IMG/VR virus record: IMGVR_UViG_2541047932_000021
Direction: 5' to 3' (one strand)
Length of the DNA stretch: 33,489 nt
From: a virus
Lineage: Duplodnaviria > Heunggongvirae > Uroviricota > Caudoviricetes
Below the pieces are notes generated by a model that did not search any database, had not been told where the DNA came from, and saw only the letters and a program-made list of their open reading frames with translations. Both the position numbers and the translations under genes were made by a program. Shown here in pieces: positions 22,641-33,489 of this stretch. The first letter of the stretch is position 1; every line of letters begins with the position of its first letter.

Positions 22641-23218
22641 TGACATTCAGAATGAGTGAACAATCACGGACCATAAAAATTTATAATCTACTGACCGGAA
22701 CCAATGAGTTTATTGGTGAAGGTGATGCATACATTTCACCTCATACAGGTCTGCCTGCAAACAGTACCGATATTGCCCCGCCAGATATTCCGGCTGGCTT
22801 CGTGGCCGTTTTCAACAGTGATGAGGCATCGTGGCATCTCGTTGAAGACCATCGGGGTAAAACGGTTTATGACGTGGCATCAGGGGACTCGTTATTTATT
22901 TCTGAACTCGGTCCGTTACCGGAAAATGTTACCTGGTTGTCGCCGTATGGAGAGTATCAGAAGTGGAACGGCACATCCTGGGTGAAAGATGCAGAAGCAG
23001 AAAAACTATTTCGGATAAGGGAGGCGGAAGAAACAAAAAACAGCCTGATGCAGGTAGCCAGTGAGCATATTGCACCACTTCAGGATGCTATAGATTTAGA
23101 TATTGCGACGGAGGAAGAGACATCGTTACTGGCTGCATGGAAGACATATCGAGTATTGTTGCATCGTGTTGATACAACAGTAGCAGCAGATATTGAGTGG
23201 CCAGTCGCCCCACAATAA
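22640..23218 (+). CDS. G: Tail fibre assembly chaperone gpG
   Basis: 192 aa; ATG overlaps the H stop; Tfa-like sequence. Confidence 0.85.
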
Positions 23219-30885: not shown

Positions 30886-31146
30886 ATGTTCCGTTGTCCG
30901 CTTTGTGGCGCATCTGCCCGTATCCGCACCAGTCGTCCTGAAAATGATTCAAACACCGTGCGGCAAAAGTATTACCAGTGTAACAACCTGGAATGCGGCG
31001 TATGCTTCTCAACACTGGAAGCTTTCCATAAATTCACATCAAAACACACCTCCGGCGTTCACTCTTCAGAAGGTATCCCGTGGCATGAGCTGCCAGCTTC
31101 ACACAGGGGAAACAATCAGATGAGTTTGCCTTTACCTCAGAATTAA
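30886..31146 (+). CDS. ogr: Ogr/Delta-family zinc-finger late transcription activator
   Basis: 86 aa; MFRCPLCG...YYQCNNLECG Cys4 pattern as in P2 Ogr. Confidence 0.85.
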   Translation: MFRCPLCGASARIRTSRPENDSNTVRQKYYQCNNLECGVCFSTLEAFHKFTSKHTSGVHSSEGIPWHELPASHRGNNQMSLPLPQN

Positions 31147-31337
31147 CAGGCAGAATTGCCGGAGTAACAAAAAAGCGATAGATTACGCGCGGGTGCCTTT
31201 CGGCTGATGGTCGGAGGGAATACCCGAAGGCCAGATGTGGAAAGGCCCCGGAAAACATTTCTGTTTAACCGAGGCCCTAACATATCTACCTTAAGCAAGT
31301 GATAGGTTAGCGCCTCTCCAACAAAGGAGCAAGCGCT

Positions 31338-31478
31338 ATGTCGCAAAAATCGCTTACGGCCATCACGTTCTGCGTGACGGTAATCCTCATCATCTGGATG
31401 CTACACGGTTCGCTGTGTGAAATACGGATGAGCTTCTGGGGAGCGGAGTTTGCGGCGTTCTTACAGTGTAAGCAGTAA
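31338..31478 (+). CDS. Hok/Gef-family type I toxin (46 aa)
   Basis: MSQKSLTAITFCVTVILIIWMLHGSLCEIRMSFWGAEFAAFLQCKQ; N-terminal transmembrane helix plus conserved SLCEIR and AAF motifs; below the ORF-track size cutoff. Confidence 0.75.
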   Translation: MSQKSLTAITFCVTVILIIWMLHGSLCEIRMSFWGAEFAAFLQCKQ

Positions 31479-31566
31479 GGAAACCGCGACGGGGGAGCAA
31501 TCCCCCGTCAATCGGTTGCTAAGGTTGGCTGAAGTGGCACCCTATCTCACAGACATGAACAACAAA

Positions 31567-31598
31567 CCCGCAGCGTAAGAACTGCGGGTTTTCTTTTT
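31567..31598 (+). terminator. Rho-independent terminator downstream of hok
   Basis: Stem CCCGCAG / CTGCGGG followed by TTTTCTTTTT. Confidence 0.6.
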
Positions 31599-31666
31599 GG
31601 AACTATCACTAGCTAGTGTACCGTTAACGGCACATAATGCTCGCACAACAAACCTGTTAAAAGAGA

Positions 31667-31948
31667 TTACTCAGCATTCTCCTGCTTCCATTGCCGGATC
31701 ATTTCATCGGTAACATCACCCTCATAACATACCACGTCATACCCTCCATTACGGCTATATGCACTGCGTCCACCACATCTACTACCATTCCTTGCATGAT
31801 TATAAGGACACGCACAATTGCCTGGATAAGATTCAATGGATTCTTTAATTATTTCTTTTTTGATCTGAGCATCAGACTTTCCTGTTGCTGCATATCCGCT
31901 AAAAGATACTAAACAAAGGCAGATTGCCATTAATAAACCACATCGCAT
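31667..31948 (-). CDS. Small secreted cysteine-rich protein, unknown function
   Basis: Start taken at M39 of the ORF (signal peptide MRCGLLMAICLCLVSFSGYAA); four Cys in the mature part; AT-rich. Confidence 0.45.
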   Translation of the reverse strand: MRCGLLMAICLCLVSFSGYAATGKSDAQIKKEIIKESIESYPGNCACPYNHARNGSRCGGRSAYSRNGGYDVVCYEGDVTDEMIRQWKQENAE

Positions 31949-32175
31949 ACCGATACACTCTATTACTAACCAATCATAGCCCACATCATAAAATCGAGAT
32001 GAGGAGTACAATACCTTTAACAAGAAGGTGTCATAACGATAATATGTCGTGCAATTCATCAAAAAAAAGATCTATATCAAAGAGATAGAACTCTTATCAG
32101 TGCTTCAGACATCGGCATTCGAGGCAGCAGAAAAACAGTAAATCTGACGAATTTGCCTTTTCCCAAGATGTTGTC

Positions 32176-32334
32176 AGATTAAAAAGATAGATTAGCGCAG
32201 GTACCTGTTGGTGGATTGCAGGAGGAAAAATGAAGTCGAGTGGAAAAATCCCAGAAAAATTTTTGTTTAACAGAGGTCCTGGTTCACTATGCGAAATACG
32301 GAGGAGCTGCAGAAGAATTCTGCTTCATCCTTAG
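32176..32334 (+). pseudogene. Deleted hok-like locus remnant
   Basis: Leader similar to 31167-31290 and a retained SLCEIR-encoding segment, but the transmembrane-coding part is missing. Confidence 0.45.
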
Positions 32335-32418
32335 AGTTTAAACAGCACGTGCACTACCATTGTTTCTGCATATCGCCACACCATCGCCACTCAACCGCCA
32401 TTGCACAAAATACAAATA

Positions 32419-32441
32419 CAAAAAAACCACCCGAAGGTGGT
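32419..32441 (-). terminator. Rho-independent terminator of the glyW-cysT-leuZ operon
   Basis: Read on the minus strand: stem CCACC / GGTGG with 4-nt loop followed by a T-run, directly downstream of leuZ. Confidence 0.6.
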
Positions 32442-32486
32442 TTCACGACACTGCTTATTGCTTTGATTTTATTCTTATCTTTCCCA

Positions 32487-32573
32487 TGGTACCCGGAGCG
32501 GGACTTGAACCCGCACAGCGCGAACGCCGAGGGATTTTAAATCCCTTGTGTCTACCGATTCCACCATCCGGGC
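32487..32573 (-). tRNA. leuZ: tRNA-Leu (anticodon UAA)
   Basis: 87 nt; reverse complement reads GCCCGGATGGTGGAATCGGTAGACACAAGGGATTTAAAATCCC...GGGTACCA with CCA end. Confidence 0.9.
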
Positions 32574-32585
32574 TCGGGAAGAAAG

Positions 32586-32659
32586 TGGAGGCGCGTTCCG
32601 GAGTCGAACCGGACTAGACGGATTTGCAATCCGCTACATAACCGCTTTGTTAACGCGCC
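32586..32659 (-). tRNA. cysT: tRNA-Cys (anticodon GCA)
   Basis: 74 nt; reverse complement reads GGCGCGTTAACAAAGCGG...ATTGCAAATCC...GCGCCTCCA. Confidence 0.9.
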
Positions 32660-32713
32660 AAATTCTTCAGGCCTTTCAGCCAGACATCCGCTTGACGCCG
32701 ATGTCTTTTAAAC

Positions 32714-32789
<76 letters not shown>

Positions 32790-32940
32790 ATTCATCAAGC
32801 AATCAGTTAATCACTTGATTTTATTATCGTCTGGCAATCAGTGCCGCCGTTCGATGCGTTGCATTCTACTTACCTGGCGCGATGAGTCAACGATATTTTT
32901 CACCACTTTTGATCGTTTGCTGAAAATTACGCCGAAACGA

Positions 32941-33489
32941 TCACTGATCAAGCAAATCTGCACGCGCAGCGCTCAAATATTGCAACATTGACCACAGAGT
33001 CAGTACCGCAGCCACAAAGAAAAGTGCAATACCGGCGTACTCAACCCAAATGTTCGGACGCCACAGCAGCCAGGCCAACGCCACCATCTGGGCAGTGGTT
33101 TTCACTTTCCCAATCCAGGAGACAGCCACGCTACTGCGTTTACCCAACTCCGCCATCCATTCGCGTAGCGCAGAAATAATAATTTCACGGGCGATCATCG
33201 TTGCCGCCGGTAGGGTCACCCACCAGCTGTGATAATGCTCGGTTACCAGCACCATGGCGATAGCCACGAGAACTTTATCTGCTACAGGGTCAAGGAAAGC
33301 ACCAAACCGGGTACTCTGGTTCCAGCGGCGTGCCAGAAAACCATCGAACCAGTCAGTCACCGCCGCGACGCAGAAAATGAGCGCGGCGGCAAACGGCGAC
33401 CAGGTGACAGGCAGATAAAAGACCAATACAAAGAATGGGATAAGGATGACACGGAACAGTGTAAGCAACGTAGGGATATTAAATTGCAT
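32941..33489 (-). CDS. pgsA: CDP-diacylglycerol--glycerol-3-phosphate 3-phosphatidyltransferase
   Basis: 182 aa multi-pass membrane protein matching E. coli PgsA as recalled ([27 protein letters not shown]...); adjacent to glyW-cysT-leuZ as in E. coli. Confidence 0.85.

What the first reader, a model, noticed from the sequence alone, without database searches (positions are those of the whole stretch)
31147..31610. Intact hok-family type I toxin locus abutting the prophage right end
A 46-aa ORF (31338-31478), too short for the ORF track, has the hallmarks of Hok/Gef toxins: an N-terminal transmembrane helix and the SLCEIR...AAF core. It is followed by GC-rich stem-loops (31489-31509 and 31567-31588) and a T-run, consistent with a structured hok mRNA 3' end, and preceded by a short SD-led leader ORF (31235-31294). 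It lies about 190 bp after ogr, so it is either the first host-side element or cargo at the prophage end. Its position next to the prophage/host junction suggests a role in stabilising the region. No antisense RNA was mapped.
Basis: partly seen in the sequence, partly recalled or inferred. Interest (0 to 1): 0.55.

Follow-up and report, generated by a model that had tools for sequence, protein, structure and literature searches.

The report
Prophage-borne hok/Sok toxin-antitoxin locus
The short ORF is a real, already annotated Hok-family membrane toxin gene with its antisense-RNA control region. It is carried as cargo about 0.8 kb inside a P2-like (P88-type) prophage, not at the prophage/host junction, and it lacks the usual overlapping 'mok' helper reading frame.

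Summary
ORF 31338-31478 (+) encodes a 46-aa Hok/Gef peptide (Pfam PF01848, 30.1 bits, cut-off 22). It keeps every residue that is conserved across Hok proteins. It sits in a roughly 408-nt structured mRNA (31191-31598) built like plasmid R1 hok. That build comprises 5'-3' fold-back pairing, a 3' protective hairpin, a terminator, and a predicted ~60-nt Sok-like antisense RNA (about 31297 to 31235, minus strand).

The fold is supported by covariation in 48 distinct relatives. The peptide is under purifying selection.

The same protein is annotated in phage P88 and in RefSeq (WP_000078920.1). The locus occurs in 1545 of 5426 complete E. coli genomes. A one-residue variant was cloned for a toxicity assay in a 2026 preprint and is not among the three non-toxic homologs it names.

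Two parts of the interpretation fail:
- The locus does not abut the prophage end. attR is a 124-bp leuZ repeat at 32418-32541, so hok is phage cargo.
- The leader ORF is not a conserved Mok. No reading frame reaches the hok ribosome-binding site here or in 75% of relatives.

Overall this is a known kind of element of low interest. Its mok-less regulation has not been characterised.

The parts
30886..31146 (+). ogr (late-gene activator) of the P88-like prophage. It is the gene immediately upstream, with no terminator between it and hok.
   Evidence: Pfam Ogr_Delta 52.4 bits. The terminator scan of 31050-31700 finds no + strand terminator before 31564.
31156..31184 (+). Predicted hok promoter: -35 TTGCCG (31156-61), 17-nt spacer, -10 TAGATT (31179-84).
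   Evidence: Read from the sequence. The spacing and -10 box are kept in the Stx-phage copy. It falls below the stringent scan threshold (4+4 of 12 matches), so it was not called.
31191..31598 (+). Full-length hok mRNA (predicted, about 408 nt).
   Evidence: The 5' end is set by the start of the Rfam sok/leader model match and by homology to the R1 +1. MFE is -178.1 kcal/mol, z -7.9. The R1 control folds with the same architecture.
31191..31205 (+). tac-like 5' element. It pairs with fbi in the full-length RNA, with 31209-31225 in a 5' hairpin, or with the ucb-like box.
   Evidence: Duplex energies are tac:fbi -25.6 and tac:ucb -21.8 kcal/mol.
31235..31294 (+). Short leader ORF (19 codons). 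It is not a conserved peptide and stops 44 nt before the hok ATG.
   Evidence: Frame and stop position vary. The ATG is absent in L017 and L018.
31241..31276 (+). ucb-like box AAAGGCCCC (31241-49) paired with CCGAGGCC. The GAGG at 31271-74 is the position homologous to the R1 mok ribosome-binding site. On the opposite strand this stem is the Sok-like terminator hairpin.
   Evidence: (helix 4).
31235..31297 (-). Predicted Sok-like antisense RNA (about 55-62 nt): an 11-nt single-stranded 5' tail, then a hairpin and a U-rich tail.
   Evidence: Fold -24.4 kcal/mol, z -4.3. The offset from the hok ATG matches annotated K-12 sokC, sokB and sokE. Expression is not shown.
31304..31332 (-). Predicted Sok promoter: -35 TTGCTC (31332-31327), 17-nt spacer, -10 TAACCT (31309-31304).
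   Evidence: The -10 box is invariant in all 48 distinct relatives, and the TTG of the -35 box is conserved.
31308..31338 (+). Hairpin that sequesters the hok ribosome-binding site (GGAG 31326-29, paired with CUCC 31316-19) and the start codon.
   Evidence: helix 7, 96.8% paired. Local fold -19.9 kcal/mol against -13.8 for R1.
31338..31478 (+). hok coding sequence, 46 aa.
   Evidence: Pfam PF01848 above the gathering score. Identical to P88 gp52 and annotated as WP_000078920.1 in strain 55989. dN/dS 0.26; 12 synonymous-only against 2 non-synonymous polymorphic codons.
31488..31509 (+). GC-rich 3' hairpin. It is the predicted protective 3' end of the processed, active mRNA.
   Evidence: Three pairs carry compensatory changes (helix 16). 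It plays the role of the last stem-loop of truncated R1 hok mRNA (PMC9841398).
31511..31525 (+). 3' UTR segment that pairs with the Sok-target region 31288-31303 in the full-length RNA.
   Evidence: Five pairs carry changes on both sides (helix 6).
31527..31542 (+). fbi-like fold-back element GGCUGAAG-U-GGCACCC.
   Evidence: helix 1, 94.6% paired. G-C to A-U compensation is seen in L017 and L018.
31564..31598 (+). Intrinsic terminator of the hok mRNA.
   Evidence: Homology to P88 ends here.
32418..32541 (.). attR: a 124-bp direct repeat (3'ETS-leuZ plus the 3' 55 nt of leuZ). This is the true right boundary of the prophage.
   Evidence: The same 124 bp occurs in P2-like phage records, and a related segment is annotated as attP in mEp390.

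Best explanation
This is a hok/Sok-type type I toxin-antitoxin module. It is carried as accessory cargo between ogr and attP of a P88-like (Xuanwuvirus, P2-family) prophage integrated into leuZ.

Shown or strongly supported:
- A weak constitutive-type promoter is predicted to give a roughly 408-nt hok mRNA.
- The 5' end of that mRNA (tac-like) pairs with a 3' element (fbi-like).
- The Sok-target region is paired with the 3' UTR.
- The hok ribosome-binding site and AUG are locked in a local hairpin of about -20 kcal/mol.
- The opposite strand encodes a roughly 60-nt Sok-like RNA. Its promoter overlaps the hok translation-initiation hairpin.
- The 46-aa peptide is a single-pass inner-membrane toxin of the Hok family.

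Inferred by analogy with R1:
- The full-length RNA is inert.
- Slow 3' trimming back to the hairpin at 31488-31509 removes fbi and the partner of the Sok target. That refolds the 5' end (tac with the ucb-like box) and exposes the target.
- Abundant, unstable Sok then pairs with the target, and RNase III destroys the duplex.
- When Sok supply stops, processed mRNA is translated and Hok depolarises the membrane.

Difference from R1: there is no mok frame. Hok translation must be activated without coupling to an overlapping ORF, and how that happens is unknown.

The biological role is unresolved. My rough weights are:
- about 0.4 for helping lysis or release during lytic growth. hok lies directly downstream of D-ogr with no terminator, so late read-through would raise hok RNA and run against Sok transcription. 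This matches hokW-sokW in Sp5.
- about 0.3 for addiction or stabilisation of the prophage.
- about 0.2 for abortive infection against other phages.
For: Identity of the toxin:
- Pfam PF01848 above its cut-off; PHROG 251.
- All family-conserved residues are kept; one hydrophobic helix.
- 43.5% identity to HokA and 32.6% to R1 Hok.

RNA architecture:
- The Rfam sok/leader model matches 31191-31348, E 2.7e-9.
- The MFE fold closes the 5' and 3' ends, z -7.9. The R1 control behaves the same way.
- On 48 distinct relatives, 96.2% of cells are paired. Eighteen pairs change on both sides, against 6.1 in shuffles (0 of 500 reach it) and 4-10 in slid controls.
- Sok-like fold z -4.3. Its -10 box is invariant. 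Its offsets match K-12 sokB, sokC and sokE.

Selection on the peptide:
- dN/dS 0.26; 12 synonymous-only against 2 non-synonymous polymorphic codons.

Toxicity (literature):
- The V15A variant (72_1621) and the Stx-phage variant (72_1589) were cloned for the arabinose-induction assay.
- Neither is among the three non-toxic homologs of the 45 tested.

Cargo status:
- att repeats.
- Same position in phages P88 and Chuche.
- The prophage is 95% identical to Xuanwuvirus genomes.

Role analogy:
- hokW-sokW of Sp5 (PMC8621323).
Against: - No transcript, processing event or antisense RNA has been observed for this locus.
- The Rfam sok score (47.9 bits) is below the gathering score (59).
- No mok ORF reaches the hok ribosome-binding site. 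In R1, premature mok stops abolish Hok translation.
- The initiation hairpin is more stable than in R1. The copy could therefore be translationally silent.
- The covariation test used a structure derived from the window sequence itself.
- hok genes are not enriched near defence systems (section heading).
Confidence: 0.85

Rival explanations
1. The locus is a translationally silent relic. The RNA and the ORF look intact. Loss of mok and the very stable hairpin over the ribosome-binding site and AUG mean that Hok is never made. This would resemble the inactivated chromosomal hok loci of E. coli K-12.
For: - No ORF reaches the hok ribosome-binding site in the window or in 52 of 69 related loci.
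- In R1, mok translation up to the hok ribosome-binding site is mandatory.
- The initiation hairpin is -19.9 kcal/mol, against -13.8 in R1.
- K-12 hokA, hokC and hokE carry IS insertions next to or inside the locus.
Against: - The peptide is under purifying selection.
- Compensatory changes maintain the inactive full-length fold and the 3' hairpin.
- Both promoters are conserved.
- The locus is retained in 28% of complete E. coli genomes and in many phages.
- K-12 hokE also has no annotated mok and no ATG at the R1 mok position.
Confidence: 0.12
2. The short leader ORF (ATG 31235) is the working equivalent of mok. Ribosomes translating it melt downstream structure and so license hok translation, and Sok controls it.
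For: - The ATG and the GAAGG upstream of it are conserved across the P88 and Stx-phage clade.
- In three relatives (L015, L085, L089) the same ATG opens a 61-79-aa ORF that runs across the hok start.
- In the common Chuche-type variant the ORF stops at -30, inside the 5' arm of the hairpin over the ribosome-binding site.
Against: - In the window the ORF stops at -46, before the hairpin.
- Stop positions range from -71 to read-through, and the frame changes by indels.
- The ATG is missing in L017 and L018, which keep a conserved Hok.
- The homologous position is ATA in hokC and AAA in hokB.
- Polymorphisms within the ORF are non-synonymous.
- The share of relatives with any read-through frame (17 of 69) is roughly what chance gives for a 90-nt frame.
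Confidence: 0.15
3. The locus is a host chromosomal element that merely lies next to the prophage/host junction.
For: Prophage predictors often end proviruses at or inside hok. Many IMG/VR contigs stop at the hok stop codon, and the phage 520873 record ends in mid-hok.
Against: - K-12 has only 128 bp between yecA and 3'ETS-leuZ at this site and no hok.
- The 124-bp att repeats bracket hok.
- The identical locus is in the genome of phage P88 and in Chuche.
Confidence: 0.01

Closest known systems
hok/sok (parB) of plasmid R1
   Same: - Hok-family peptide.
- Structured mRNA of about 400 nt, with 5'-3' fold-back (tac/fbi).
- An upstream box paired with a GAGG motif.
- A 3' protective hairpin just upstream of fbi.
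- An antisense RNA of about 60 nt whose promoter lies in the hok initiation region.
   Different: - No mok: the R1 mok AUG position reads AUA here and is followed by stops.
- The peptide is 46 aa rather than 52, at 32.6% identity.
- It has His-Gly where R1 has Arg-Lys after the helix.
- The initiation hairpin is more stable.
- It is carried by a phage, not a plasmid.
Hok 'cluster 72' of Escalera-Maurer et al. (bioRxiv 10.1101/2025.08.07.668861): P88 gp52 and RefSeq WP_000078920.1
   Same: The protein is identical to P88 gp52 and is annotated as WP_000078920.1 in strain 55989. It differs by V15A from tested construct 72_1621 and is 76% identical to the Stx-phage member 72_1589. Neither construct is on the preprint's list of three non-toxic homologs.
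   Different: Nothing at the protein level. The preprint did not analyse mok, Sok or mRNA structure.
hokW-sokW of Stx2 prophage Sp5 (Takada et al. 2021, PMC8621323)
   Same: A prophage-borne hok/Sok module. The antitoxin RNA is complementary to the 5' UTR. It is described without any mok. It is proposed to aid lysis after induction.
   Different: - HokW is a 51-aa peptide starting MKQQKAM (primer YO-357), so it is a different paralog.
- It sits in a lambdoid phage.
- The database label 'MokW-like' for the present protein is a PHROG family name, not evidence of a Mok.
Chromosomal hokA and hokE/sokE of E. coli K-12
   Same: HokA is the nearest characterised peptide (43.5% identity; the NCBIfam HokA model is the best hit). 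hokE also lacks an ATG at the R1 mok position and has no annotated mok.
   Different: The match scores 35.8 bits against the HokA equivalog cut-off of 89, so it is not HokA. The K-12 loci are chromosomal and IS-disrupted.

Membership tests
Hok/Gef toxin family (Pfam PF01848) | Profile match above the curated gathering score | tested here: met
   30.1 bits against a cut-off of 22, residues 7-44. PHROG 251 scores 82.8 bits.
Hok/Gef toxin family (Pfam PF01848) | Residues conserved in more than 80% of Hok peptides (M1, C16, T18, L30, C31, E32, E41 of the published logo) | tested here: met
   M1, C12, T14, L26, C27, E28 and E37 align to these positions (logo). C44 matches the optional C/Y48.
Hok/Gef toxin family (Pfam PF01848) | Single N-terminal transmembrane helix in a peptide of about 50 aa | tested here: met
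   The Kyte-Doolittle 19-residue mean reaches 2.15, with windows starting at residues 1-11 all at 1.5 or higher.
Hok/Gef toxin family (Pfam PF01848) | Toxic when expressed | not testable with these tools
   Literature only. The V15A variant 72_1621 and variant 72_1589 were cloned for the assay and are not among the three non-toxic homologs of the 45 tested.
[quoted passage not shown] | Cis-encoded antisense RNA (Sok) against the hok leader, with its own promoter and terminator hairpin | tested here: inconclusive
   Predicted: the -10 box TAACCT is invariant in 48 of 48 relatives. Hairpin fold z -4.3. The position matches K-12 sokB, sokC and sokE. The Rfam sok match of 47.9 bits is below the gathering score of 59. 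No expression data.
[quoted passage not shown] | Long-range 5'-3' fold-back (tac/fbi) that closes the full-length mRNA | tested here: met
   Present in the MFE fold. 94.6% of cells are paired across 48 relatives, with G-C to A-U compensation in L017 and L018.
[quoted passage not shown] | mok: an upstream ORF that overlaps hok and whose translation is coupled to it | tested here: not met
   No ATG/GTG/TTG-initiated frame reaches the hok ribosome-binding site in the window or in 52 of 69 related loci. The R1 mok AUG position reads AUA.
[quoted passage not shown] | 3' processing to an active truncated mRNA, and RNase III cleavage of the Sok duplex | not testable with these tools
   Only the required 3' hairpin (31488-31509, with compensatory changes) is seen.
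HokA (NCBIfam NF007290 equivalog) | Score at or above the equivalog cut-off | tested here: not met
   35.8 bits against a cut-off of 89.
P2-family (Xuanwuvirus/P88-like) prophage cargo | Lies between the att repeats and is present at the same position in phage genomes | tested here: met
   attR lies at 32418-32541 and attL is outside the window. The locus follows ogr in P88 and Chuche.

The most novel reading that the evidence does not exclude
This widespread Hok subfamily (cluster 72) may be a truly mok-independent variant of hok/Sok. The toxin's ribosome-binding site and AUG are locked in a hairpin of about -20 kcal/mol that doubles as the Sok promoter. Activation would then depend on something other than coupled translation. 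One candidate is late-operon read-through from D-ogr during lytic growth. That would raise hok RNA and interfere with convergent Sok transcription, making Hok a timed lysis helper of P2-like phages.
Probability: 0.3. Interest if true: 0.45.

Novelty: already known. Interest (0 to 1): 0.2.

Why it matters
For genome annotation there are three practical points:
- The right end of this prophage lies at the leuZ repeat, not at hok.
- Several database 'phage' records and IMG/VR proviruses are cut at or inside hok.
- The label 'MokW-like' is misleading for a Hok toxin.

For toxin-antitoxin biology, the only point of interest concerns regulation. A very common prophage-borne Hok subfamily keeps the R1-style RNA switch but has no mok frame. 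The rule from R1 that mok translation is obligatory therefore cannot be general. This is easy to test with reporter fusions.

Tried and rejected
A three-sequence alignment worked.
- The consensus promoter scan called nothing in 31050-31700. The hok and Sok promoters are assigned by homology, spacing and conservation only.
- I looked for mok at the R1-homologous position (GAGG plus 7 nt). It reads ATA here and CAT, CGT or CCG in relatives, so it was rejected.
- I considered the leader ORF and the ATG-130/GTG-100 frame as mok. Read-through is patchy (17 of 69 loci), as expected by chance.
- I checked whether the locus is the published hokW. It is not: that is a 51-aa paralog.
- I checked HokA equivalence. 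The score is below the cut-off.
- The AT-rich ORF downstream has no Pfam or NCBIfam family, only a weak Sclerostin hit and PHROG 27544 of unknown function.
- The truncated-RNA MFE gave the 5' hairpin rather than tac:ucb pairing. Both elements are nearly invariant, so covariation cannot test tac:ucb.

Full report
**1. Observation**

The ORF at 31338-31478 (+) is present. It encodes MSQKSLTAITFCVTVILIIWMLHGSLCEIRMSFWGAEFAAFLQCKQ.
- It matches Pfam HOK_GEF above the curated cut-off: 30.1 bits against 22.
- It matches PHROG 251 at 82.8 bits.
- It has one hydrophobic N-terminal segment.
- It aligns with R1 Hok and K-12 HokA, HokB, HokC and HokE.
- It keeps the C-x-T motif, the L-C-E motif, the E of E(F/V)AAF and the C-terminal Cys.
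- These are the positions reported as conserved in more than 80% of 1264 Hok peptides.
- Identity is 43.5% to HokA and 32.6% to R1 Hok.

The other described features are also real:
- the two GC-rich stem-loops, at 31488-31509 and 31564-31591;
- the T-run after the second stem-loop;
- the 19-codon leader ORF at 31235-31294;
- the 191-bp distance from ogr.

**2. Where the locus sits**

The window is E. coli. It is 100% identical to strain 2013C-3342 and 99.9% identical to strain 55989 over 31100-33489. In 55989 the ORF is already annotated as the Hok/Gef family protein WP_000078920.1.

The prophage is a P2-family Xuanwuvirus, about 95% identical to phages 520873, P884B11 and P88.

Comparing K-12 (yecA, 128 bp, 3'ETS-leuZ, leuZ) with both junctions in 55989 gives the boundaries:
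- The insertion is bounded by a perfect 124-bp direct repeat.
- The repeat consists of the 3'ETS-leuZ spacer plus the last 55 nt of leuZ.
- attR lies at window 32418-32541.
- attL lies just left of the window start, beyond the integrase stop codon.
- The same 124 bp is found in P2-like phage records, and a related segment is annotated as attP in mEp390.

hok therefore lies about 0.8 kb inside the element. An AT-rich segment with a minus-strand ORF separates it from attR.

The identical hok locus follows ogr in phage P88, where it is gp52 with the label 'MokW-like host killing'. It also follows ogr in Chuche, and other Peduoviridae records match the same segment.

It is phage cargo, not the first host-side element. 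It does not abut the junction. The interval between hok and attP is a variable slot: P88 has another small ORF there, and Chuche has Com plus a DNA methyltransferase.

**3. Anatomy of the RNA**

The Rfam 'sok' model covers the sense-strand hok leader. It matches 31191-31348 with E 2.7e-9 but scores 47.9 bits, below the gathering score of 59.

Folding 31191-31598 gives -178.1 kcal/mol, z = -7.9. The fold contains these pairings:
- The 5' end GGGUGCCUUUCGGCU pairs with GGCUGAAG-U-GGCACCC at 31527-31542 (tac/fbi-like).
- AAAGGCCCC (31241-49) pairs with CCGAGGCC. This holds the GAGG homologous to the R1 mok ribosome-binding site.
- The region 31288-31303 pairs with the 3' UTR at 31511-31525.
- The hok ribosome-binding site (GGAG 31326-29) and the AUG sit in the hairpin 31308-31338.

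The R1 hok mRNA served as a control. My recalled R1 sequence was verified at 100% identity against plasmid records. It folds with the same overall architecture, z = -8.3.

I tested the fold on 48 distinct relatives from IMG/VR, GTDB genomes and phage records. The results are:
- 96.2% of cells are paired.
- Eighteen pairs show changes on both sides. Shuffles give 6.1 (0 of 500 reach the observed value), and slid controls give 4-10.
- Compensatory changes are concentrated in the Sok-target/3' UTR helix (5 pairs), the 3' hairpin (3 pairs) and the leader hairpin (3 pairs).
- The structure was derived from the window sequence, which inflates the percentage paired. It does not inflate the counts of double changes.

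Alternative pairings needed for an R1-like switch also exist:
- a 5' hairpin at 31191-31225, -19.6 kcal/mol;
- a tac:ucb duplex, -21.8 kcal/mol.

These elements are invariant among the relatives, so they cannot be tested by covariation.

**4. The antisense RNA**

On the minus strand, TTGCTC-17 nt-TAACCT (31332-31304) precedes a predicted RNA running from about 31297 to about 31235.
- It has an 11-nt single-stranded 5' tail, then a hairpin and a U-rich tail (-24.4 kcal/mol, z = -4.3).
- The -10 box is invariant in all 48 relatives, including the most divergent ones.
- Its distance from the hok ATG (about -42 to -103) matches annotated K-12 sokC, sokB and sokE, which lie at -44 to -107.

This is a prediction. 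No expression data were available.

**5. mok**

In R1 the mok AUG lies 7 nt after GAGG. Translation of mok up to the hok ribosome-binding site is required for Hok synthesis (PMC9841398).

Here the homologous triplet is AUA (31282-84). It is followed by a stop after six codons, and relatives have CAU, CGU or CCG at that position.

Across 69 related loci:
- its stop position ranges from -71 to read-through;
- its frame changes through indels;
- its polymorphisms are non-synonymous;
- its ATG is absent from the Salmonella diarizonae and Citrobacter copies.

Only 17 of the 69 loci have any upstream-initiated frame that reaches the hok ribosome-binding site. That is about what chance gives. The subfamily therefore has no conserved mok.

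K-12 hokE likewise lacks an ATG at the R1 position and has no annotated mok.

The hok initiation hairpin is stronger than in R1: -19.9 against -13.8 kcal/mol. How translation is activated is open.

**6. Is the locus functional?**

Several results point to a maintained, working module rather than a relic:
- Among 24 close distinct coding sequences, 12 polymorphic codons are purely synonymous. Two carry conservative replacements (V15A, F33L).
- dN/dS is 0.26 against the Stx-phage and S. diarizonae copies.
- The preprint 10.1101/2025.08.07.668861 cloned the V15A variant (72_1621) and the Stx-phage variant (72_1589) under an arabinose promoter.
- It reports 42 of 45 tested homologs as toxic and names the three exceptions, which do not include these two.
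- The RNA covariation and the conserved promoters agree with this.

I put the silent-relic alternative at about 0.12.

**7. Biological role (inferred)**

The molecular logic should follow R1: an inert full-length RNA, 3' trimming to the 31488-31509 hairpin, and exposure of the Sok target. Sok then directs RNase III decay of the processed mRNA, and Hok is made when Sok is lost.

Three roles are possible, and I could not separate them:
- Lysis help. There is no terminator between ogr and hok. Late transcription would therefore read into hok and against the Sok promoter. In Sp5, sokW disappears and HokW appears after induction, and the locus aids phage release (PMC8621323).
- Prophage addiction or stabilisation.
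- Exclusion of other phages.

**8. Novelty**

- The protein is annotated in RefSeq and in phage P88.
- It belongs to a catalogued, experimentally sampled Hok cluster.
- hok enrichment in prophages is published.
- The subfamily occurs in 1545 of 5426 complete E. coli genomes, with up to 7 copies per genome.

The finding is a correct identification of a known element, with a wrong placement relative to the prophage boundary. The only under-described aspect is the absence of mok.

Noticed in passing
window 31599-32417 (ORF 31667-31948/32062, minus strand): An AT-rich segment (GC 0.33-0.45) lies between the hok terminator and attR. It encodes a 93-131-aa protein with a signal-peptide-like N-terminus and a Cys-rich motif (YPGNCACPYN..RNG..CGGRSAYSR). 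It matches PHROG 27544 (unknown function, E 7e-58) but has no significant Pfam match (only a weak Sclerostin hit below threshold) and no NCBIfam match. At megablast sensitivity it has no DNA match in the phage collection. The slot between hok and attP holds different cargo in P88 and Chuche (Com plus a DNA methyltransferase).
   Followed up: partly
window 32418-32541 (attR), and attL just left of the window start: The att repeat is 124 bp and includes the whole 3'ETS-leuZ small-RNA sequence plus 55 nt of leuZ. Lysogens therefore carry a second copy of the 3'ETS-leuZ sequence at attL, detached from the glyW-cysT-leuZ operon.
   Followed up: partly
window 22983-23181 (+): An Rfam IS009 match above the gathering score (177.2 bits against 117) lies inside the tail-fibre region of the prophage.
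   Followed up: no
L099 (NC_049344.1 positions 1-2300) and IMG/VR loci such as L023, L028, L031: The RefSeq 'phage 520873' record is a prophage cut-out. It starts in host yecA and ends in the middle of hok. Many IMG/VR proviruses end exactly at the hok stop codon. These are boundary-calling artefacts and make hok look like the prophage end.
   Followed up: partly
L012 (Planococcaceae MAG), L013 (Vagococcus sp.), L016 (Xanthomonas pisi contig): Hok loci identical (L012, L013) or 74% identical (L016) to this enterobacterial peptide appear in assemblies labelled as unrelated taxa. The likely cause is contamination of those assemblies with Enterobacteriaceae or phage DNA.
   Followed up: no
window 31308-31310: The in-frame TAG ten codons upstream of the hok ATG overlaps the invariant Sok -10 box (AGGTTA on the + strand). 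In the common Chuche-type variant the leader ORF is in frame with hok and ends at this TAG. The antisense promoter itself therefore imposes the stop that separates the leader from Hok.
   Followed up: no
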